Both the position numbers and the translations under genes were made by a program. Positions 22,023-29,757 of a DNA stretch of 64,000 nucleotides are shown here, piece by piece. The stretch comes from a virus. Lineage: Duplodnaviria > Heunggongvirae > Uroviricota > Caudoviricetes. Position 1 is the first letter of the stretch, and every line of letters begins with the position of its first letter. The notes under the pieces are model-generated. The model was not told the origin of the DNA and searched no databases. It was given only the letters and a program-made list of their open reading frames with translations. The stretch lies in the IMG/VR virus record IMGVR_UViG_3300050011_000047, positions 14,132 to 78,131 of that record. The stretch is one strand, 5' to 3'.

Positions 22023-22037
22023 TATACTCGTAGGGTG
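22023..22037 (+). promoter_or_regulatory. leaderless promoter: -10 TATACT, 6 nt, then GTG start of the portal gene
   Basis: ggTATACTcgtaggGTGgac has the same spacing and the same second codon (GAC) as the GATACT-N6-ATGGAC elements at 5676 and 30955. Confidence 0.35.
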
Positions 22038-23756
22038 GACGCACCCGATCCTAAGAAGGTACGCGCAGCCGTCGAAAAGGCCAAGGAGGGCTCCGACGGC
22101 AAGGTGCTCAAGGTACTCTACCTCGACGCGCAGGGTGAGCCCGCAGGCGATTGGGCCTCGACGCAGTTGCCCGAGAATCCGTGGGAGACTGTGCAGGCCA
22201 CCACGCAGTTGATCGAGCCCCCGTTCCCTATGGGGCAGTTGACCTTCCTCGCGGAGATGCACCCGGTGCATTCATCGGCGCTCGAACAGAAGGCAGCGGA
22301 CGTGTGCGGCAAGGGATGGGAATGGATCGCGGATGATCCCGATGTAGCAGACGAAGACCTCCGTGACGAGATGGAGGACTGGTTCCAGTCGCTTGCACCG
22401 GACGAGTTCGACATGCGCGAACTCGTCAACACCGCGTGGCTCGATGAGGAGACGACCGGGTGGGGACTGCTCGAATGCGCACGTGATCCGCAGGGAGTCG
22501 TGCAGCGGCTCTACCACGTGCCCGCGCACACGGTCAAGACGCACAAGAACGGGTTTGCTCTCTGCCAGGTGCGCGACTCGCGCAAGATGTGGTTCCGTAG
22601 GTGGGGCTCCACTGACATCGCCGGGAAGCCGGTCGAGGTCAACATGCGCAACGGCTCAATCACGAACGTGCCGGAGGATCAGCGCGCGAACGACCTTCTC
22701 GTCATCAAGCGCCCGTCGCGGCGATCCACGTGGTACGGCATCCCCGGCTACATCTCCGCAATCGGATGGATCACGCTCGCGCTCGCAGCACGCGATGACA
22801 ACCTGTACTTCTTCTCCAACCGCCGCGAGCCCCGTTGGGCGATCATCCTCACCGGTATGGCCGAGGATACCGAGATTGAGGAAGATCTCCGGCGCGCGTT
22901 CACCGTGGACATGAAGCAGCCGTACCGAAATGTCATGGTACCGGTCGCAGGCAAGGACGCGAAGGTCACCTTCCAAGAGTTGTCGTCCACGGCGAAGGAC
23001 GGCTCGTTCGGGAACCTCGGGGATCGCGCCGACAAGGCCATCATGGTCGCACACCGCGTGCCCGCCGAGCGTCTTGCGAACTCCCAGGTTGGCGCTCTCG
23101 GCGGCAACGTCGCGTCCGAGTCGAACCGCGTCTACAAGGAAGGCGTCGTCGCTCCCGCGCAGGAGGTTCTCAACTCGCGCCTCAATCGCTTCATCGCGGT
23201 CGAGTTTGCCAAGTACAAGAATCAGGAGTACAAGAAGGGCGACAAGTCGATGTGGCTTCTCAAGATGGATGACCTCGACATCCGCTCCGACCGCGAGGAC
23301 ATGGATCAGGCGCTCATCCTGTTCCACGGCGATATGATTACGCTCCGGGAAGCGCGTCATCGGCTCGGCCTCGGCCCACTCATGAAGCCGAAGCCGGTCG
23401 CACAGAAGAACCCGGATGGTACGCCGAAGACGAACCCTGACCCGATCACGGGTGAGCCGACGCAGGTCTTCGGCCCGCCGATCCCCGGCGTAGACGACGA
23501 GGAGAACCCGGCAGTGGACATCAACGGCAACCCCGTACCGCCTGAGGAAGTCGAGTCCGAGTTCAATGACATGTTGTTCTCGCAGTTGCCGGGCGCGAGC
23601 GGTCAGGCCGGGCTCCCCGGTGGCGCTCCGCCTACCGGCACCGGCAAGTTGACGCCGGAAGTGAACAAGGCGCTCGCGTCTGACGTGCGTGAACTGCTCC
23701 GTTCATCCTACGCGACACATGATCGTATCGCGCGGATGGCCGGAGATGACGGCTAG
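22035..23756 (+). CDS. portal protein
   Basis: 573 aa with an acidic C-terminus, immediately upstream of and overlapping a MuF-like gene (canonical portal-MuF pairing). Assignment is by size and context. Confidence 0.55.
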   Translation: MDAPDPKKVRAAVEKAKEGSDGKVLKVLYLDAQGEPAGDWASTQLPENPWETVQATTQLIEPPFPMGQLTFLAEMHPVHSSALEQKAADVCGKGWEWIADDPDVADEDLRDEMEDWFQSLAPDEFDMRELVNTAWLDEETTGWGLLECARDPQGVVQRLYHVPAHTVKTHKNGFALCQVRDSRKMWFRRWGSTDIAGKPVEVNMRNGSITNVPEDQRANDLLVIKRPSRRSTWYGIPGYISAIGWITLALAARDDNLYFFSNRREPRWAIILTGMAEDTEIEEDLRRAFTVDMKQPYRNVMVPVAGKDAKVTFQELSSTAKDGSFGNLGDRADKAIMVAHRVPAERLANSQVGALGGNVASESNRVYKEGVVAPAQEVLNSRLNRFIAVEFAKYKNQEYKKGDKSMWLLKMDDLDIRSDREDMDQALILFHGDMITLREARHRLGLGPLMKPKPVAQKNPDGTPKTNPDPITGEPTQVFGPPIPGVDDEENPAVDINGNPVPPEEVESEFNDMLFSQLPGASGQAGLPGGAPPTGTGKLTPEVNKALASDVRELLRSSYATHDRIARMAGDDG

Positions 23757-26700
23757 CGCACTAGACCTCTCCGCCGAGCATCTCCGTCAGGTCGAGGAGT
23801 TGTACCTTCGCATCCGCGAGGCGGGGATCGAAGCCGACGCAGGCAGTGATGATCTTCTCGCACTCTCGCGCGAGCACAAGCGGCGCGTGAAGCATCTGTT
23901 CCTCGCGGTCGAGAAGATGCGGCGCAGCCCGCACCGGCAGGCCGTCCATGAGAAGTCGCACGCGCAGCGGCTCGCGCTTGAGCAGGTGTGGACGCAGCGG
24001 CTCCGGCTCCTCTCCGACCATCTCGTCAACGGCTTCGACATCGACGGGGCCTACGAGGTAGCCCGGCGGGCGTGGGTCACCCCGGCGGACGAGCCCCACG
24101 ACGGCATCTACGTGGACGAGCATGCGCCGGGGCGGCTCAAGAAGGCTCTCACGCCGCCGAAGAAGTCTGACCTCTCGGTGGTCGAGCACTGGCCCGGCAA
24201 GCGCGGGACGGCGGCTCGACTTGCGCTCAAGAGGGCGGCGACTACCGAGGGCGTCGAGGCGCTCGTGCTCCGCGACTCGACCGGCAACCCGATTGCCGTC
24301 GCAGCGGTCAAGGCGAGCCCCGGCGACCTGCACGTGGAGTTCCTTGCATCCGAGCCCGGCAAGGGCGCACAGATGATGCAGGAGTTGGCGAAGGTGGCGA
24401 AGAAGACCGGCTCCGGGCTCTCCCTGTTCTCTGTCCCCGAGGCGGCGCAGTTCTACGATGGGATCGGGATGGCGGCAGGCGACCGCGCCGGGCAGTACAT
24501 CATGACCCCTGCGCAGACGGCGGCATTCGCGGTGACCGGCGGCATTCTTCCTCCGGCGGGCTCGAAGGCGGCGGGTATGACCAAAACCGAGCAGGCAGGT
24601 GTGCAGCAGTTGATGCTCAACGCGATCCAGTCGAGCGGGACACCTGGCAGCGCCGACGTGAAGCGGGCACTCTCATCGGTCGAGAATCAGGCAGCATGGG
24701 AGCGCGGCGCGGCGACGCAGTACCTCGGGCTCGCGGTGCAGACGGCGGAGCAGGCCGGGCAGGTGGCGCTCGATCATCTCGGACTCCACAAGACGTTCGA
24801 GTTCGCGAACCCGCAGACGATGGTGGGCGACGCGACGGCGGTGCGCGGCTCGAAGGTGATTCAGTCCATGTACGGGGCGCACGTCGATGCGCTTACGAAC
24901 ATCATCACGGACGCCACTAACCCGGCAGCGCCGCAAACCATCGCGCAAGTCAAGGCGTCGATCCGCGAGCAGTGGCCGAAGTTGCAGACGTATCAGGTCG
25001 AGCGGATCGCACGCACGGAGACGGCGGCGGTGTGGATGTCCACGAGCGCGAACGCCTACGCGGCGAACGGCATCTCGCAGTTCGAGACTATCGTCGCCAC
25101 CGGCCCAAGCATCGGCGTCGAGAGCGAAGACCCGTGCGACGAGTGTGTGGCGGCGGCAGAGGACGTGCACTCGCTCGATGACGACCTCCCGCCGTGGCAC
25201 CCAAATGCGGTGCTTGGAGGTTCTACGTTTCTATCTTACGGTGAACCGCTCGAAGCGGTTCGTGCGCGCTACCGTGGCCTTTCCGTACTCATCCGTGCGG
25301 GGGAGCACGTGCTTACCATCGGGCCTAACCACCCGGTGATGACCCGGCGCGGGATGGTGCCTGCAAATCAGATTCGCGAAGGTGACGAGTTGGTCTACGA
25401 CAGACGCGCTAATCGGCAGGAAGGCGCGATACGCGCTATCACATCGGACATCGAAGACGTGCCACTCGTCGAGGATGCGTTCACGGCGCTCCTGTCTACG
25501 GGCACGTATGCGACCGTTCCCGTGACCCCCGATGATCTCCACTGCGACGGGGTATTCTGCGAGGGCGAAGTCGATGTTGTAAGGCCCGACGGCAACCTGC
25601 TGGCGGTACTCGATCCCCGAGGCATCAAGGAGATGCGCGAAGTCGCGTTCGAGGCTTCCAGCGCCGAGTACCCTCAACTCTCTCGTTTTCGCGCGAGCCT
25701 CACGCCGAGAGAGCGGGTCGATGTTTCCACGTCGAGCCTCGTGGCAGGCCATGAATCGCTTAGGTTTATTCGAGTCATTCATGTGGACTTTGTGGACTTC
25801 GAGGGATGGGCGTTCGATTTCTCGGTACAGGGTGGGATGTATCTCAGTAATGGCTTTATGGTATCAAACTGTCGATGCGAGGCCGTGCCGGTACTGGAGG
25901 ACACGGACGGCACGCCATGGCTTCCGCCGGACGAACCGTGGACGGGCGGCGGCGACGGCTCCGGTGACATGGCACCGGGCACATTGTTCGAGCCGATGCC
26001 TCCACCGGAGCAACTCGCGATGGAGTTTGCGCCGGGCACGGTTGCGCCGTCGGCGGACATCTTGCTCAAAGGCTCGCTTGCGCAGCAGACGGTGCAGGAA
26101 GAACTCGGCAACATCGGGCGCGTGCATCAAATCCCCGATCACGTTGATGTGCCTTCGGTCAAGGGCGCGGTACACAACTCCTACTCACCCGATGAGAACC
26201 GCATCTTCCTCAATCCTCGTCCCGCCGAAGGCGAGTATCTCAAGGGCACGAGCGTTGTTCACGAGTACGGGCACTTCGTGCAAGAGCAGCGTGTCGTCTC
26301 AATGAACGATCAGATTGCCGTGTCCGATATGGCCGAGGCCACGCCGGAGTGGGCGTCGTTCGAGCGGTACGACCAACAACCGAACGAGTTGTTCTCCCGC
26401 GTGTATCAGCAGTGGATCGCAACCAAGAACGCGGACGAAGTGAAGTTGGCGTTCTACAAGGCGCAAGGCAAGTTTTGGTCACCCGAGTCGTTCAAGCCTC
26501 TCGGCGCGAAGATGGATGAGGTCTTCGCTCCGCTCATGAAGCCGAAGTTCCCGGACGGCTCACCCAAACTCCCGGAGAAGACGCCCGACGCAGCGCCCGC
26601 ACCGAAGGCGGAGGAGTTCCCCGCACCACTCGTGATCGACGCTGCGACGTGGACTGAGAAGAAGGTAATCGAGACACTCGCGCCGTTCGAGGGACGCACC

Positions 26701-29700
26701 GTTCGCCTGACGGGCCAGGGGTTCAAGGGGCACGAGTACACGATGGAGGGCGAGTACAAGTTCGACAAGGAATCAGGCTACCCGCTCGTTGGGGATCGCA
26801 CCATCGGCACCGGCACGGACATGGTGCACGTCGAAGTGCAAGACTCCGGCGGCGCGTGGCACACGATTGCGGAGAAGCCGTTGTCCGAGCGTGCGCCGGT
26901 CGAGCCCGAGCCGACGTTCTCGAAGCCCGACGCACTCCCCACGTATTCGGGCAAGACCGTGGAACTGTCCGAGCGGTACAAACTCAAGGTGCCGAACAAG
27001 GAGTTGAAGGCGTCGGTCACGACGGCGCTCGATGACATCGCGAGCCGGATTAAACTCCCGGAGGAAGCACGCCCTGTGGACGTTACGCCGGGCTCCGGCA
27101 TGTCGTCAAACTTCACGCCCGCAGGTGTGCAGCGCGGTGTTGTCAAGGGTGCACGCATTCGTATCTCCACGAATCGCGGTACGCAATCGCATTTCGACCG
27201 CATCGACTCGACCTATCATGAATACGGGCACTACCTCGATTGGACGGGCCTTGGCGGCGCGGATGGTTGGGCGGGCACGCGGTACGGCTCCGAGTACGCA
27301 GCCGACATGAAACCGCTCATGCAGGCGTTCTTCGACTCGCCCGAGTACAAGCAGTGGCGCGACATCTACTCCGGTAAGTTCAAGCCCGGTGAGGGTGTCT
27401 ACGCGCCCAAGAGTCATGCTCGCTACATGAAGTCGAACGTCGAGTTGTTCGCTCGCGGCTTCGCGCAGTACATGTCCGAGGTCACTGGCAACGCGGAGTA
27501 CCGCGCGTTCGTGGCCGATCACGTCCCGCTTGAGAAGGGCGGGTGGTATTGGACGCCGGAGAACTTCGCGCCGATCAAGGACGAGTTCGACAGGTTGTTT
27601 GAGAAGCGAGGTCTACTCAAGGAGACGCCACCCGCGCCCGAGCCGTTGCCCGCACCTACACCCGAGCCCCTCGCGCCGGAGACGCCCGCGTTCGCGCCCA
27701 AGGAGCCGCTCACGCAAGATCAGCAGTTGGCCGTCAACGACTACACCGGCAGAGGCGGCGAGGGGCAGGAGGGCTACCTACGCACGAACCGTTGGCTCCG
27801 TGGGCTCAAGCAGACACACGGCGACCCGCTCGCGACGATCAAGAACCGCGTCGAGCATCTCGATGCAGCCATCGAGAGCGCGGCCCCGCTCGCGACGCCG
27901 ACGACCGTGTGGCGCGGTATCGGTAACTCTGAGTTCTATGGTGGCGGCGGCACGCTCAAGGTCGGTCAAGTGATCGAAGACCCGGCCTACCTCTCGACCT
28001 CTTCGACGCCGAAACTTCCGACCTCGTGGGCGGGCACTCACGGCGACCTGTGGGAAATCAAACTGCCGAAGGGGATGAAGGGCCTCGACGTGAACGCGGC
28101 CCTCAAGGACACACCCTACGGCCCACACGGGCTCGATCCGGCCACGACCAAGGAGGGCGAGATTATCCTCCCACGCAACACGCGCCTCGTGGTGGACGCG
28201 ATCAAGGAGCGTGTCACGACATACCCGAACGGGAACCGCGTGGTCGCACACGACGTTACAGCGCACGTGGAGAGCATCCCCGAGTTGCGCCCGCCGACGC
28301 CGGTCAAGGAGAACATCCCCGATCCGAACCCGGCAACTCCGCCACCGCCCCCGCCTCCGCCCCCGCCTCCGCCACCGGCACCCACTCCGGTGCATCCGAC
28401 GACTCCCGAGGCAACACCGGCCTCCACGACGAACAACCCGCCCCTCCCCGAGTGGCACGACTTCACGACGCCCTCCGGGCTCGAAGCCGGGCTCGCACAC
28501 TACGAGGGCAAGCAGGTGCGTCTGACGTTCACGTTCCCGAGCGGAGCAACTAAGAAGTTCACCGGGCTCGTTGAGCGCAACTCACGCGGGCAGATGATGG
28601 TGGATCGTTCGACGTTCCGCGAGTCAGCCGTCCCGAACATCACGGGCGTCGAGGTCAAGGTCGGCAGTCGCTTCAAGCCGTGGAAGGAATACGAGCGTAT
28701 GACGCCCGAGCAGCAGAATCCCGCGCCTCCGAAGCAGCGCACGGCATCCGGTTCGTCAGAGAAGCCGGTACCCGAGGGCGGTTACACGTTCCCGGACAAC
28801 GTACCGAGCGGTGTCCTCGGTGACGTACCGGCAACGCCGATCTTCGAGAACGTCGCGCATGCACAGGCGTTCGCAGAGAGGTACCTCGCACGTGAGGTCT
28901 ACCTCGGAAAGAACCCGGAACTCAAGGGCGTGCAAGAGGCGCTCGATGCGATGGCGCAAGTGCTGCGCCCGTTCGACTTGAAGATCGAGCGGTTGCAGGT
29001 CGAGCATGATCCGCGCTCCTCGGGGCTCGCGTACTACTCCTCGAATGCCACGAAGAAGATGCTCATTGACGGCAAGAAGCAGTATTGGTCAGGCGAACTC
29101 ATCCGCGCGCAGGCGCAGTTGTTCTCGAAGTCCAAGGCGGCGGCGGTGGGTGACAACCAAGCAGTGTTCGAGGCGAACAAGGCGAAGGAGATTCGCACGC
29201 GCGAGGACTGGATCGCACAGGCGGAAGAACGCCACACGTCACCCGAGAAGATCGCGCAGTACCGTCGTGAGATTGCCAACTTGGAAGCGGCGAAGCGGTG
29301 GTACATCGCGGCGGTTGATGGCGGTGCTGACGCCACCAAGGCGTTCATGTCGCACGAGGCTGCGCACATGCTCTCGCGTAACTTCGGACATGAAATCGCC
29401 GGAGTCAGCATCACGGAGGCGGGGCTCGCGCCGATCTTCACCACGCGACTTGAGTTGCACGGCGTCACGCAGGAGGAGCGTTGGTCAGTCTCGCAATACG
29501 GCGCGAGCGGCGACAAGGCGCGACAGGCTCAAAACTCGGAGTTGTTCGCAGAGGTTACGGCGGCGAAGATCAGCGGGCACTATGACCTCGTGCCCCTCAA
29601 CATCCGCGAGGCATACGAGGAGACGCTCGGCTACATCACGCAGGCTGACATCGAGGCGAAGGCAGCGGCGAACAAGGCCCGAGATGCGGCGGTCGAGGCG

Positions 29701-29757
29701 AAGCGCGTACAGAAGGCCGGGCTCGAATCGGTGCGCAAGCGGGTTGGGCTACACTAG
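23746..29757 (+). CDS. giant MuF-like virion protein: MuF domain interrupted by an intein, two HEYGH zincin-like motifs, an ADP-ribosyltransferase-like domain, a poly-Pro linker and a C-terminal domain
   Basis: ATG 23746 after CCGGAG. Translation has ERIARTETAAVW...DLPPWHPN[221 aa]CRCE (Mu F signature PPxHPNCRC split); TSVVHEYGHF and STYHEYGHY; ...TTVWRGIGN...AYLSTSS...KEGEIILPR (R/STS/ExE); [14 protein letters not shown]. Confidence 0.7.
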   Translation: MTASALDLSAEHLRQVEELYLRIREAGIEADAGSDDLLALSREHKRRVKHLFLAVEKMRRSPHRQAVHEKSHAQRLALEQVWTQRLRLLSDHLVNGFDIDGAYEVARRAWVTPADEPHDGIYVDEHAPGRLKKALTPPKKSDLSVVEHWPGKRGTAARLALKRAATTEGVEALVLRDSTGNPIAVAAVKASPGDLHVEFLASEPGKGAQMMQELAKVAKKTGSGLSLFSVPEAAQFYDGIGMAAGDRAGQYIMTPAQTAAFAVTGGILPPAGSKAAGMTKTEQAGVQQLMLNAIQSSGTPGSADVKRALSSVENQAAWERGAATQYLGLAVQTAEQAGQVALDHLGLHKTFEFANPQTMVGDATAVRGSKVIQSMYGAHVDALTNIITDATNPAAPQTIAQVKASIREQWPKLQTYQVERIARTETAAVWMSTSANAYAANGISQFETIVATGPSIGVESEDPCDECVAAAEDVHSLDDDLPPWHPNAVLGGSTFLSYGEPLEAVRARYRGLSVLIRAGEHVLTIGPNHPVMTRRGMVPANQIREGDELVYDRRANRQEGAIRAITSDIEDVPLVEDAFTALLSTGTYATVPVTPDDLHCDGVFCEGEVDVVRPDGNLLAVLDPRGIKEMREVAFEASSAEYPQLSRFRASLTPRERVDVSTSSLVAGHESLRFIRVIHVDFVDFEGWAFDFSVQGGMYLSNGFMVSNCRCEAVPVLEDTDGTPWLPPDEPWTGGGDGSGDMAPGTLFEPMPPPEQLAMEFAPGTVAPSADILLKGSLAQQTVQEELGNIGRVHQIPDHVDVPSVKGAVHNSYSPDENRIFLNPRPAEGEYLKGTSVVHEYGHFVQEQRVVSMNDQIAVSDMAEATPEWASFERYDQQPNELFSRVYQQWIATKNADEVKLAFYKAQGKFWSPESFKPLGAKMDEVFAPLMKPKFPDGSPKLPEKTPDAAPAPKAEEFPAPLVIDAATWTEKKVIETLAPFEGRTVRLTGQGFKGHEYTMEGEYKFDKESGYPLVGDRTIGTGTDMVHVEVQDSGGAWHTIAEKPLSERAPVEPEPTFSKPDALPTYSGKTVELSERYKLKVPNKELKASVTTALDDIASRIKLPEEARPVDVTPGSGMSSNFTPAGVQRGVVKGARIRISTNRGTQSHFDRIDSTYHEYGHYLDWTGLGGADGWAGTRYGSEYAADMKPLMQAFFDSPEYKQWRDIYSGKFKPGEGVYAPKSHARYMKSNVELFARGFAQYMSEVTGNAEYRAFVADHVPLEKGGWYWTPENFAPIKDEFDRLFEKRGLLKETPPAPEPLPAPTPEPLAPETPAFAPKEPLTQDQQLAVNDYTGRGGEGQEGYLRTNRWLRGLKQTHGDPLATIKNRVEHLDAAIESAAPLATPTTVWRGIGNSEFYGGGGTLKVGQVIEDPAYLSTSSTPKLPTSWAGTHGDLWEIKLPKGMKGLDVNAALKDTPYGPHGLDPATTKEGEIILPRNTRLVVDAIKERVTTYPNGNRVVAHDVTAHVESIPELRPPTPVKENIPDPNPATPPPPPPPPPPPPPAPTPVHPTTPEATPASTTNNPPLPEWHDFTTPSGLEAGLAHYEGKQVRLTFTFPSGATKKFTGLVERNSRGQMMVDRSTFRESAVPNITGVEVKVGSRFKPWKEYERMTPEQQNPAPPKQRTASGSSEKPVPEGGYTFPDNVPSGVLGDVPATPIFENVAHAQAFAERYLAREVYLGKNPELKGVQEALDAMAQVLRPFDLKIERLQVEHDPRSSGLAYYSSNATKKMLIDGKKQYWSGELIRAQAQLFSKSKAAAVGDNQAVFEANKAKEIRTREDWIAQAEERHTSPEKIAQYRREIANLEAAKRWYIAAVDGGADATKAFMSHEAAHMLSRNFGHEIAGVSITEAGLAPIFTTRLELHGVTQEERWSVSQYGASGDKARQAQNSELFAEVTAAKISGHYDLVPLNIREAYEETLGYITQADIEAKAAANKARDAAVEAKRVQKAGLESVRKRVGLH
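25207..25869 (+). other. putative mini-intein (221 aa) inserted between N and C of the MuF HPN/CRC motif
   Basis: Begins AVLGGSTFLSYGE (Ala1). Block B-like LTIGPNHPV (TxxH). C-terminal ...GMYLSNGFMVSN followed by Cys +1. Local GC is lower than the flanking extein. Confidence 0.5.

What the first reader, a model, noticed from the sequence alone, without database searches (positions are those of the whole stretch)
25207..25869. Intein-like insertion splitting the invariant HPN|CRC motif of the MuF domain
The conserved Mu-F motif reads LPPWHPN, then a 221-aa insert, then CRCE. The insert begins with Ala, which is KlbA/class-2-like with no N-terminal Cys or Ser nucleophile. It has a TxxH block-B-like LTIGPNHPV, ends ...NGFMVSN with Cys at +1, and has lower GC than its flanks. 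Inserting into the most conserved site of a protein is typical of inteins. The non-canonical Ala1 and Ser replacing the penultimate His would make it an atypical splicing class.
Basis: partly seen in the sequence, partly recalled or inferred. Interest (0 to 1): 0.7.

Follow-up and report, generated by a model that had tools for sequence, protein, structure and literature searches.

The report
MuF intein with antisense homing endonuclease
The 221-codon insert is a real self-splicing protein element (intein) in a phage head-assembly gene, it lacks the usual first catalytic residue, and its middle part encodes a DNA-cutting "homing" enzyme on the opposite strand; a 2025 preprint has already described this two-strand layout in related phages.

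Summary
Window 25207-25869 is an in-frame 221-codon insert between LPPWHPN and CRCE of a 2022-aa MuF fusion protein. It starts with Ala and ends ...VSN|C. Its GC content is 0.59, against 0.64 for the whole gene.

It belongs to a large clade. Of 125 cluster representatives with a full-length insert, 114 start with Ala. All 125 have a terminal Asn and Cys+1. None has the class 3 Trp-Cys-Thr triplet. By sequence this is class 2 (KlbA-like) chemistry. Splicing itself is untested.

ORF 25231-25782 (-), in codon register with the intein, encodes a Vsr-like nuclease. Across 22 relatives, purifying selection switches strand: sense in codons 1-70 and 191-221, antisense in codons 101-180.

This layout, including the intein of the relative REQ3, is in a 2025 bioRxiv preprint. 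The element is therefore a new member of a known kind. The class 2 reading and the codon-level evidence are additions made here.

The parts
23689..29757 (+). Host gene: a 2022-aa MuF-type head-morphogenesis fusion protein. It also carries metallopeptidase-like, LPD1 and ADP-ribosyltransferase regions, and lies directly downstream of the portal gene (22035..23756).
   Evidence: PF03496 E 2.8e-14; LPD1 E 9.5e-6; portal PF04860, 43.8 bits against a cut-off of 39.1. After in-silico splicing, PF04233 Phage_Mu_F matches at E 0.032, below its cut-off, across the junction to profile position 111/112. The unspliced protein gives no MuF hit at E<=1.
25186..25206 (+). N-extein side of the insertion site (LPPWHPN).
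   Evidence: The residue at -1 is Asn in 115 of 125 relatives.
25207..25869 (+). Intein, 221 codons, from Ala1 to Asn221.
25207..25416 (+). N-terminal half of the Hint splicing domain (codons 1-70). It includes Ala1 (25207-25209) and the block B His42 (25330-25332). Selection acts on the sense frame.
   Evidence: in each 10-codon bin, sense-synonymous changes number 82-249 and antisense-synonymous changes 20-46; 13 columns have an invariant sense residue while the antisense residue varies, and none show the reverse. pLDDT is 83-98. NCBIfam intein-containing models hit residues 19-71.
25417..25776 (+). Central segment (codons 71-190). It stays open in the sense frame, but selection acts mainly on the antisense frame.
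   Evidence: in codons 101-180, antisense-synonymous changes outnumber sense-synonymous changes several-fold, except in the 111-120 bin; 16 antisense-constrained columns in codons 71-180, against 1 sense-constrained. The model is low-confidence at 71-81 and 144-182.
25540..25566 (+). Island of interleaved two-strand constraint (sense codons 112-120, HCDGVFCEG). Sense His112, Asp114, Phe117, Cys118 and Gly120 persist through changes that alter the antisense residue. The flanking and interleaved antisense residues Glu82, Ala80, Phe72 and Asp71 persist through changes that alter the sense residue.
   Evidence: codon tables. For example, codon 112 is CAC in 21 sequences and CAT in 1. Codon 114 is GAC 14 / GAT 8. 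Codon 118 is TGT 7 / TGC 6. Codon 111 is CTC 13 / TTC 9, which reads antisense Glu in 22 of 22.
25777..25869 (+). C-terminal part of the Hint domain (codons 191-221). It includes the block F Asp204 (25816-25818), Tyr212, Ser220 and the terminal Asn221 (25867-25869). Selection acts on the sense frame.
   Evidence: pLDDT is 84-98.
25870..25878 (+). C-extein start, CRC. Cys+1 is the candidate splicing nucleophile.
   Evidence: Cys+1 is present in 125 of 125 relatives.
25231..25782 (-). Antisense ORF of 183 aa, in codon register with the intein (sense codon k pairs with antisense residue 193-k). It is the putative Vsr-like / PD-(D/E)xK-type homing endonuclease. The family-invariant acidic residues are Glu45 (25648-25650), Asp71 (25570-25572) and Glu82 (25537-25539).
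   Evidence: PF18741 E 9e-4 and DUF559 E 2.6e-3, both below their cut-offs; a family profile has as its two best PDB hits 3hrl (E 0.0022) and 3r3p, I-Bth0305I (E 0.021); the frame stays open in relatives down to 41% GC, with 1 stop observed against 55.7 expected in the centre; antisense purifying selection; the window keeps all 8 family-invariant residues.

Best explanation
The insert is a mobile intein at the HPN|CRC site of a phage MuF (minor head / head-morphogenesis) gene. Its information is divided between the two DNA strands.

Sense strand. This strand encodes a Hint-fold splicing domain in two pieces, codons 1-70 and about 185-221. They are joined by a roughly 110-codon linker that only has to stay free of stop codons. 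After translation the element should excise itself and join ...WHPN to CRCE..., restoring the MuF motif.

Splicing route. The intein has Ala1 and no Trp-Cys-Thr triplet. It keeps the block B His42, the block F Asp204, the terminal Asn221 and Cys+1. The most likely route is therefore class 2 (KlbA-type). In that route Cys+1 attacks the N-terminal junction amide directly and forms the branched intermediate. Asn221 then cyclises, and an S-to-N shift makes the peptide bond.

Antisense strand. The linker and part of the N-terminal half are read in the same codon register on the opposite strand. They give a 183-aa Vsr-like nuclease. This is presumed to cut intein-less MuF alleles at the HPN|CRC coding sequence, so that repair copies the element in (homing).

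Shown here: the boundaries, the Hint fold, family-wide conservation of the splice-site residues, the strand switch in purifying selection, the nuclease-family similarity, and presence/absence polymorphism in a related clade.

Inferred, not shown: that this copy splices, that it uses the class 2 route, that the antisense ORF is expressed, and that it cuts the empty site.
For: Intein identity
- The boundaries are exact.
- Homologous inserts lie at the same MuF site in Rhodococcus phage REQ3 (42% identity, full length, Ala1). Cys1 forms occur in Salmonella, Pseudomonas and Gordonia phages, and tblastn matches lie in MuF genes of Cronobacter, Vibrio and Edwardsiella phages.
- The Salmonella form passes TIGR01445 (29.1 bits, cut-off 24.5) and TIGR01443 (25.3, cut-off 15.6).
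- The in-silico-spliced Salmonella SE1 MuF matches uninterrupted genes at up to 96.5% identity, and 905 records match it contiguously.
- GenBank annotates the Escherichia phage Snoke homologue as an intein.

Splice-site residues under selection
- In 125 cluster representatives with profile-defined boundaries, position 1 is Ala in 114 and Cys in 11. The last residue is Asn in 125 and +1 is Cys in 125. Block F position 4 is Asp in 114. Block B position 12 is Met, Val or Ile. Block G position 5 is Val in 117.
- Ala1 uses all four codons (GCG 7, GCA 5, GCT 5, GCC 4). His42, Asp204 and Asn221 also show synonymous turnover.
- The class definitions come from PMC2807308.

Antisense gene
- The in-register antisense frame is open for 193-251 codons in relatives of 41-68% GC.
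- Antisense stops are depleted relative to the flanking extein codons of the same genes. The centre has 1 observed against 55.7 expected (Poisson P 3.5e-23). Codons 16-70 have 2 against 21.9 (P 8e-8).
- Among single-base codon differences, codons 1-70 give 1095 sense-synonymous against 227 antisense-synonymous. Codons 136-192 give 225 against 869. Codons 193-221 give 531 against 70.
- The Gordonia Angelicage antisense ORF passes Pfam HTH_58 (38.8 bits, cut-off 23.8) and hits REase_MTES_1575 at E 6.4e-6.
- Antisense proteins are more similar across phages than the sense inserts are. For example, Gordonia against Klebsiella gives 33% identity over 254 aa, E 3e-28.
- The antisense profile's two best PDB hits are 3hrl and 3r3p.

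Independent description
- Gosselin et al., bioRxiv 10.1101/2025.01.02.630785, describe the same architecture.
Against: - No experiment shows splicing for any Ala1 member. The class 2 route is inferred from sequence only.
- Pfam finds no Hint or intein family in the window's insert at E<=1. TIGR01445 and TIGR01443 do not hit the window's own copy.
- The preprint lists the REQ3 homologue as class 3, which conflicts with the class 2 reading here.
- The nuclease assignment rests on sub-threshold Pfam scores and PDB E-values of 0.002-0.02.
- The antisense protein model failed (pLDDT 35).
- No promoter, terminator or clear ribosome-binding site was found for the antisense ORF.
- In the window alone, the open antisense frame is not significant. 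About 1.6 stops are expected at this GC content, so the case rests on the relatives.
- No intein-less allele close to the window's own MuF was found.
- The preprint says most Vsr-type intein clusters look vertically inherited.
- The sequence pairs in the codon test are not phylogenetically independent.
Confidence: 0.8

Rival explanations
1. The insert is a decayed intein that no longer splices. MuF tolerates it as a permanent inserted domain, because the two ends of a Hint fold lie close together.
For: It has Ala instead of Cys or Ser at position 1, Gly instead of Thr at block B position 7, and no penultimate His. No Pfam intein hit was found. The preprint reports largely vertical inheritance for most Vsr-type clusters.
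Against: Ala1, His42, Asp204, Asn221 and Cys+1 are kept across 114-125 clusters that are at most 50% identical, and their codons turn over synonymously. A dead domain would not hold the terminal Asn or a specific Ala1. The antisense endonuclease is also under purifying selection, which makes sense only for an element that still moves and must therefore still splice. The site is a Cys/His-rich conserved motif, C-x2-C...H-P-N|C-R-C.
Confidence: 0.12
2. The intein splices by a class 3-like route. An internal Cys first takes the N-extein as a thioester. The candidate is Cys118 in the sense motif H-x-D-x-x-F-C-x-G, which lies inside the region otherwise constrained on the antisense strand. The N-extein then passes to Cys+1.
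For: The preprint lists the REQ3 homologue as class 3. Sense His112, Asp114, Phe117, Cys118 and Gly120 are kept through base changes that alter the antisense residue. The Cys is present in 83 of 99 resolvable Ala1 members. The AlphaFold model is confident over residues 82-140.
Against: The defining triplet is absent: block B position 12 is never Trp, block F position 4 is Asp, and block G position 5 is Val. REQ3 itself has Gly at the Cys118 position. The Cys is also present in 6 of 9 resolvable Cys1 relatives, so it does not co-vary with loss of Cys1. Class 3 inteins usually have Thr or Ser at +1, not Cys. Confidence in the model's central part may be inflated, because covariation from the antisense protein falls on the same codons (inference).
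Confidence: 0.1
3. The antisense ORF is a by-product with no function. Long open antisense frames are common in GC-rich genes, and its nuclease-like matches are chance.
For: In the window alone only about 1.6 antisense stops are expected. Pfam hits are below their cut-offs. No promoter or ribosome-binding site was found.
Against: The frame is open in relatives at 41-47% GC, where 5-8 stops are expected in the centre. Substitutions in the centre are mainly antisense-synonymous. Sixteen columns keep the antisense residue while the sense residue varies. HTH_58 is passed above its cut-off in a relative. The two best PDB hits are both Vsr-type nucleases.
Confidence: 0.03

Closest known systems
Actinobacteriophage minor-capsid inteins with anti-sense VSR-like homing endonucleases (Gosselin, Arsenault and Gogarten, bioRxiv 10.1101/2025.01.02.630785), including the 225-aa intein of Rhodococcus phage REQ3
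   Same: Same host protein type (MuF / minor capsid). REQ3, the member checked here, has the same insertion site. The overall layout is also the same: Hint splicing parts on the sense strand and a Vsr-like endonuclease ORF on the antisense strand. The REQ3 insert is 42% identical over its full length, with Ala1 and ...VSN|C.
   Different: The window's copy is a divergent new member in an unidentified GC-rich phage-like genome, inside a 2022-aa polyvalent MuF fusion. The preprint labels REQ3 class 3. By the Trp-Cys-Thr criterion, both REQ3 and the window are class 2-type. The codon-level strand switch and the size of the Ala1 clade in metagenomes were worked out here.
Class 2 inteins (archaeal KlbA inteins, e.g. 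Methanococcus jannaschii KlbA, PDB 2jnq)
'Fractured genes': split inteins with a free-standing Vsr-like endonuclease gene between the halves (Dassa et al. 2009, PMC2677866)
   Same: Phage-associated. The same endonuclease superfamily is placed at the canonical endonuclease insertion point of an intein.
   Different: In fractured genes the host gene is broken into two ORFs and the intein splices in trans. Here the sense frame stays open through the endonuclease gene, which lies on the other strand, so the intein stays contiguous.
I-Bth0305I (PDB 3r3p; called the EDxHD homing endonuclease family in the preprint) and DUF559 / REase_MTES_1575 Vsr-type nucleases (PDB 3hrl)
   Same: These are the two best PDB hits of the antisense family profile. 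The alignment covers the conserved Glu...Asp...Glu positions. Pfam gives weak hits to PF18741 and PF04480.
   Different: Similarity is marginal (E 0.002-0.02, below Pfam cut-offs). I-Bth0305I is encoded in a group I intron, not antisense within an intein. The window's ORF lacks the N-terminal helix-turn-helix repeats seen in the Gordonia, Salmonella and Pseudomonas relatives.
Cys1 MuF inteins of Guernseyvirinae and other phages (e.g. Escherichia phage Snoke MK931441, annotated 'intein-containing capsid morphogenesis protein')
   Same: Same insertion site (HPN|C), a homologous Hint domain and a homologous antisense ORF.
   Different: These are class 1 (Cys1, Thr at block B position 7). They are longer (about 270 aa), and their antisense ORF carries a helix-turn-helix DNA-binding module. 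GenBank annotates the intein but not the antisense endonuclease. Salmonella phage PK1 lists the antisense ORF as 'hypothetical protein'.

Membership tests
Intein (Hint-fold protein-splicing element) | In-frame insertion at a conserved host site that is absent from otherwise homologous genes | tested here: met
   The 663-nt insert lies in frame between HPN and CRC. In the related Salmonella clade, the spliced sequence matches uninterrupted alleles at up to 96.5% identity. The spliced window sequence becomes colinear with PF04233 to its end, though weakly (E 0.032). No intein-less allele close to the window itself was found.
Intein (Hint-fold protein-splicing element) | Hint fold | tested here: met
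Intein (Hint-fold protein-splicing element) | C-terminal Asn followed by Cys, Ser or Thr at +1; block B His | tested here: met
   Asn221, Cys+1 and His42 are present. Asn and Cys+1 are present in 125 of 125 relatives, and His42 is invariant in the 26-sequence alignment.
Intein (Hint-fold protein-splicing element) | Autocatalytic excision and extein ligation | not testable with these tools
   Needs expression and mass spectrometry.
Class 1 (standard) inteins | Cys or Ser at position 1 for the initial acyl shift | tested here: not met
   Position 1 is Ala (GCG). It is Ala in 114 of 125 relatives, using all four Ala codons.
Class 2 (KlbA-like) inteins, as defined in PMC2807308 | No N-terminal nucleophile and no Trp-Cys-Thr triplet | tested here: met
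   Ala1. Block B position 12 is Val44, block F position 4 is Asp204, and block G position 5 is Val219.
Class 2 (KlbA-like) inteins, as defined in PMC2807308 | Cys+1, with the block B His and block F position 4 Asp available to activate it | tested here: met
   Cys+1 is present in 125 of 125. His42 is present. Asp204 is present, and is Asp in 114 of 124 scored.
Class 2 (KlbA-like) inteins, as defined in PMC2807308 | Direct attack of Cys+1 on the N-terminal junction amide | not testable with these tools
   This is a biochemical property.
Class 2 (KlbA-like) inteins, as defined in PMC2807308 | Common descent with archaeal KlbA inteins | tested here: inconclusive
Class 3 inteins | Trp at block B position 12, Cys at block F position 4, Thr at block G position 5 | tested here: not met
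   Block B position 12 is Met, Val or Ile in 117 of 120. Block F position 4 is Asp in 114 and never Cys. Block G position 5 is Val in 117 and Thr in 2. REQ3 also lacks the triplet, although the preprint lists it as class 3.
Vsr-like / PD-(D/E)xK homing endonucleases (I-Bth0305I, DUF559, REase_MTES_1575) | Sequence-profile membership | tested here: inconclusive
   For the window ORF, PF18741 scores 19.7 bits (cut-off 38.2) and PF04480 scores 18.0 (cut-off 20.6). The family profile hits 3hrl at E 0.0022 and 3r3p at E 0.021, its two best PDB hits. The preprint reports HHpred E 4.6e-5 to 3R3P for its representative.
Vsr-like / PD-(D/E)xK homing endonucleases (I-Bth0305I, DUF559, REase_MTES_1575) | Conserved acidic catalytic-core residues on the helix and strands | tested here: met
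   Glu45, Asp71 and Glu82 are invariant in 23 antisense proteins and are present in the window. They align with the conserved positions in 3hrl and 3r3p.
Vsr-like / PD-(D/E)xK homing endonucleases (I-Bth0305I, DUF559, REase_MTES_1575) | Fold, and site-specific cleavage of the intein-less allele | not testable with these tools
   The model built from a 2-sequence alignment failed (pLDDT 35).
Inteins with an antisense-encoded homing endonuclease (bioRxiv 10.1101/2025.01.02.630785) | A conserved ORF on the opposite strand within the intein, between the splicing blocks, under its own purifying selection | tested here: met
   The ORF also runs across the N-terminal splicing half.

The most novel reading that the evidence does not exclude
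The Ala1 MuF inteins may be a very large, phage-borne family that splices without an N-terminal nucleophile. It would be the first big class 2-type group outside the handful of archaeal KlbA inteins. About 110 codons would be truly dual-coding: a nuclease core on one strand, interleaved with sense-strand residues (His112, Asp114, Cys118) that themselves take part in splicing or in target recognition. That would be a new mechanistic variant rather than plain class 2.
Probability: 0.15. Interest if true: 0.8.

Novelty: new member of a known kind. Interest (0 to 1): 0.55.

Why it matters
The element shows how two selfish functions share one stretch of DNA. The splicing domain and its homing nuclease are encoded on opposite strands in the same codon register, and selection switches strand at defined points.

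Two practical consequences follow:
- Gene callers report one long MuF protein and miss the nuclease.
- Sequence-class labels need care. This clade meets the class 2 definition, not class 3.

If the Ala1 forms do splice, they would supply hundreds of natural variants of a mechanism so far studied mainly in a few archaeal KlbA inteins. That is relevant to Cys1-independent intein tools. The nuclease may also be a new site-specific enzyme that targets a conserved phage structural gene.

Tried and rejected
- Word-indexed protein search with the insert found nothing. The full HMMER scan did find the family.
- Megablast of the region against phages found no match.
- tblastn of the spliced extein against phages found no match at 1e-5.
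- Single-protein scans of the viral and genome collections found nothing. Alignment-based scans worked.
- The first literature search ('intein' plus 'MuF') returned only irrelevant papers.
- The structure model of the antisense ORF was unusable. No fold search was run on it.
- A group I intron was rejected. The sense frame is open, the insert is a multiple of three, and it has a Hint fold.
- Class 3 was considered and rejected on the triplet test.
- Block B Gly7 was considered as a marker that co-varies with Ala1. It does not: 8 of 11 close Cys1 relatives also have Gly.
- Cys118 was considered as an Ala1-specific substitute nucleophile. It also occurs in Cys1 relatives and is absent from REQ3.
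- A same-strand out-of-frame ORF in the Gordonia Angelicage intein looks like off-frame noise.
- The window versus its nearest relative P0006 gives intein 46%, N-extein 61-71% and C-extein 94% identity. This hints at faster intein evolution or exchange but does not decide between them.
Full report
**1. Observation**

ORF 23689..29757 (+) encodes 2022 aa. It reads ...DDDLPPWHPN, then 221 residues from AVLGGSTF to NGFMVSN, then CRCEAVPV. The insert is exactly 25207..25869.

Its GC content is 0.588, against 0.639 for the gene. Four homologous loci show the same 2-4 point drop.

In LTIGPNHPV the His is the block B position 10 His, but position 7 is Gly, not Thr. The Thr lies two residues further upstream. 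Everything else is as described.

**2. It is an intein**

Direct profile evidence for the window's own copy is thin:
- Pfam finds nothing in the insert at E<=1.
- NCBIfam models of intein-containing proteins hit residues 19-71 (PRK14845, E 4.3e-6).

Homologues make the case stronger:
- tblastn finds homologous inserts inside MuF / head-morphogenesis genes of 107 phage records.
- Rhodococcus phage REQ3 has a full-length, 42% identical insert at the same site. It also begins HPN|AVLEGSTF and ends VVSN|C.
- Salmonella, Pseudomonas and Gordonia phages carry longer versions at the same position that begin with Cys.
- The Salmonella version passes the curated intein N- and C-terminal models TIGR01445 and TIGR01443.
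- GenBank already annotates the Escherichia phage Snoke homologue as an intein.

Precise removal restores the host gene:
- For the window, the spliced sequence becomes colinear with the Phage_Mu_F profile to its last positions. The match is weak (E 0.032). The unspliced protein gives none.
- For the Salmonella clade, the spliced sequence matches uninterrupted MuF genes at up to 96.5% identity. In total 905 records match it contiguously, while intein-bearing records appear as two places. This presence/absence polymorphism among near-identical host genes is the hallmark of a mobile intein.

**3. A large Ala1 clade with a class 2 sequence signature**

A full HMMER scan of 1.84 billion cluster representatives gave 2673 hits at E<=1e-3 and 72 at E<=1e-30. 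I set boundaries with a profile rather than a pattern. The 125 full-length inserts among the best 150 hits show:

| Position | Residues found |
|---|---|
| Position 1 | Ala 114, Cys 11 |
| Block B position 12 | Met, Val or Ile |
| Block F position 4 | Asp 114 |
| Block G position 5 | Val 117 |
| Penultimate | Ser 55, Lys 43, His 21 |
| Last residue | Asn 125 |
| +1 | Cys 125 |

In 22 distinct DNA sequences, Ala1 uses all four codons almost evenly. His42, Asp204 and Asn221 also turn over synonymously. These residues are therefore held by selection, not by recent common ancestry.

Tori et al. 2010 (PMC2807308) give the class definitions:
- Class 3 needs a non-nucleophilic first residue plus the Trp (block B position 12), Cys (block F position 4), Thr (block G position 5) triplet.
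- Class 2 lacks both the N-terminal nucleophile and the triplet, and uses Cys+1 to attack the N-terminal junction directly.

The window, REQ3 and the whole clade meet the class 2 definition and fail the class 3 one. The 2025 preprint lists the REQ3 minor-capsid intein as class 3. On the published criteria that label does not fit.

Membership in class 2 here means 'works like'. Cys1 forms are the nearest relatives, and KlbA is not the best structural match. An independent loss of Cys1 is therefore more likely than descent from KlbA inteins.

**4. The opposite strand**

The - strand ORF 25231..25782 (183 aa) lies in the same codon register as the intein. Sense codon k and antisense residue 193-k share a triplet. 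It gives weak hits to REase_MTES_1575 and DUF559.

In the window alone an open antisense frame means little, because only about 1.6 stops are expected at this GC content. The comparative evidence is decisive:

- **The frame is open in all relatives.** It is open in all five first-examined inserts, including the 51% GC Salmonella phage (253 codons). The translations look like real proteins: helix-turn-helix repeats followed by a nuclease core. The Gordonia one passes Pfam HTH_58 above its cut-off.
- **The frame stays open at low GC.** In 26 IMG/VR loci of the window's clade it is open for 193-251 codons at GC contents down to 41%. Antisense stops occur only at sense codons up to 33 or from 201 onward.
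- **Stops are depleted.** Measured against the flanking extein codons of the same genes, the centre has 1 stop against 55.7 expected (P 3.5e-23). Codons 16-70 have 2 against 21.9 (P 8e-8).
- **Substitutions change strand preference.** Among single-base codon differences between relatives:

| Sense codons | Sense-synonymous | Antisense-synonymous |
|---|---|---|
| 1-70 | 1095 | 227 |
| 136-192 | 225 | 869 |
| 193-221 | 531 | 70 |

  Ten-codon bins place the switches near codons 70-100 and 181-190.
- **Invariant columns follow the same map.** Columns where the sense residue is invariant but the antisense residue varies lie almost only in codons 1-70 and 181-221. The reverse columns lie only in codons 94-180.
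- **The antisense proteins are better conserved.** They are more similar across distant phages than the sense inserts are. For example, Gordonia against Klebsiella gives 33% identity over 254 aa, E 3e-28.
- **The family resembles Vsr-type nucleases.** A profile of 23 antisense proteins has as its two best PDB hits 3hrl (a DUF559-type endonuclease-like protein, E 0.0022) and 3r3p (homing endonuclease I-Bth0305I, E 0.021). The alignment runs across the family-invariant Glu45, Asp71 and Glu82. The window's ORF keeps all eight invariant residues.
- **Some gene callers already call this ORF.** Salmonella phage PK1 lists it as a 'hypothetical protein'. One metagenomic protein 51% identical to the window's ORF exists.

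**5. An island of two-strand constraint**

Inside the antisense-selected region, sense codons 111-122 are interleaved.

Sense residues kept through changes that alter the antisense residue:
- His112: CAC 21, CAT 1. An antisense Val alone would allow four codons.
- Asp114: GAC 14, GAT 8.
- Phe117.
- Cys118: TGT 7, TGC 6.
- Gly120.

Antisense residues kept through changes that alter the sense residue:
- Glu82 (sense codon 111).
- Ala80 (sense codon 113; the window has Cys113 there through such a change).
- Phe72.
- Asp71.

So a few sense residues in the 'linker' matter to the intein protein, but their role is unknown. Cys118 is not a convincing substitute nucleophile. It also occurs in Cys1 relatives and is absent from REQ3.

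The confident model of residues 82-140 needs caution. Covariation imposed by the antisense protein falls on the same codons and could mislead the predictor (inference).

**6. Mechanism proposed**

The precursor MuF is translated through the whole insert, and the Hint parts fold together. With Ala1, the most likely route has three steps:
1. Cys+1 attacks the Asn(-1)-Ala1 bond directly, helped by His42 and Asp204.
2. Asn221 cyclises.
3. An S-to-N shift joins ...WHPN to CRCE....

This restores what looks like a Cys/His-rich motif (C-x2-C ... H-P-N-C-R-C).

Separately, the antisense ORF is expressed and cuts intein-less MuF alleles during co-infection, and repair copies the element in.

| Shown here | Inferred, not shown |
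|---|---|
| Anatomy and exact boundaries | Splicing of this copy |
| Hint fold | The class 2 route |
| Conservation of splice-site residues | Expression of the antisense ORF |
| Strand-specific purifying selection | Its cleavage specificity |
| Similarity to a nuclease family | |
| Presence/absence polymorphism in a sister clade | |

No sigma-70-like promoter, terminator or clear Shine-Dalgarno sequence was found for the antisense ORF.

**7. What is already known**

- Gosselin, Arsenault and Gogarten (bioRxiv 10.1101/2025.01.02.630785) describe actinobacteriophage minor-capsid inteins with anti-sense VSR-like endonucleases. They link these by HHpred to 3R3P and include REQ3.
- Antisense LAGLIDADG endonucleases in inteins were noted earlier, as cited there.
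- Vsr-like endonucleases between split-intein halves were described by Dassa et al. 2009.

The window's element is therefore a new, divergent member of a described kind. Four additions were made here:
- the class 2 reading of the Ala1 clade;
- its size, as sampled by 114 Ala1 inserts among 125 full-length ones and 2673 clusters in all;
- the occurrence of homologous antisense ORFs well beyond actinophages (Salmonella, Escherichia, Klebsiella, Pseudomonas, Vibrio, Acinetobacter and Haemophilus phages);
- the codon-level map of which strand is selected where.

**8. Verdict**

The main thing missed was the antisense endonuclease gene.

I score interest as moderate. The architecture is striking but already in a preprint. 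The class 2-type chemistry of a large phage clade is the part that would surprise a specialist, and it is directly testable.

Noticed in passing
window 23689-29757 (+): The host protein is a 2022-aa polyvalent fusion. After the MuF region come two metallopeptidase-like stretches with HExxH-type motifs (weak Pfam hits at aa 817-884), an LPD1 domain (aa 1242-1306), an ADP-ribosyltransferase exoenzyme domain (PF03496, E 2.8e-14, aa 1338-1509, about nt 27700-28215) and a run of 14 prolines.
   Followed up: partly
window 22035-23756 (+) and 23689: The portal gene (PF04860 above its cut-off) overlaps the listed GTG start of the MuF ORF by 68 nt. The true MuF start is probably further downstream.
   Followed up: no
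L001 3001-3675 (Rhodococcus phage REQ3) versus bioRxiv 10.1101/2025.01.02.630785: The preprint lists the REQ3 minor-capsid intein as class 3. Its sequence has Val at block B position 12, Asp at block F position 4 and Val at block G position 5, so it has no Trp-Cys-Thr triplet. By the criteria of Tori et al. 2010 it is class 2-type.
   Followed up: yes
L002 2453-3259, L003 2501-3316, L004 2456-3403 (- strand): The Cys1 relatives in Pseudomonas, Salmonella and Gordonia phages carry longer antisense ORFs (253-291 codons open). These have one or two N-terminal helix-turn-helix modules ahead of the nuclease core. The window and REQ3 versions lack these modules.
   Followed up: partly
window 25252-25416 (sense codons 16-70), - strand: The antisense frame is kept free of stops across the intein's N-terminal splicing half in 20 of 22 distinct sequences of the clade (2 stops against 21.9 expected). 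Amino-acid-level selection there is on the sense strand. So the nuclease carries a C-terminal tail of about 55 aa whose sequence is dictated by intein blocks A-B. Whether the tail has a function is unknown.
   Followed up: partly
L007 1405-2214 (Salmonella phage PK1): One GenBank record annotates the antisense ORF inside the MuF intein as a 'hypothetical protein', overlapping the head-morphogenesis CDS. Most records omit it.
   Followed up: no
L046 (Prescottella equi DSM 20307) and L047 (Dehalococcoidia MAG): Among 185,579 species-representative bacterial and archaeal genomes, the pattern-seeded scan confirmed only two loci with an Ala1-clade insert. One is a REQ3-like prophage in P. equi and the other is a Dehalococcoidia contig. 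On this sampling the family appears essentially phage- and metagenome-borne.
   Followed up: no
window 25207-25869 versus P0006: The nearest relative's intein is 46% identical to the window's. The flanking N-extein is 61-71% identical and the first 32 C-extein residues are 94% identical. The intein is evolving faster than its host gene, or it has been exchanged.
   Followed up: partly
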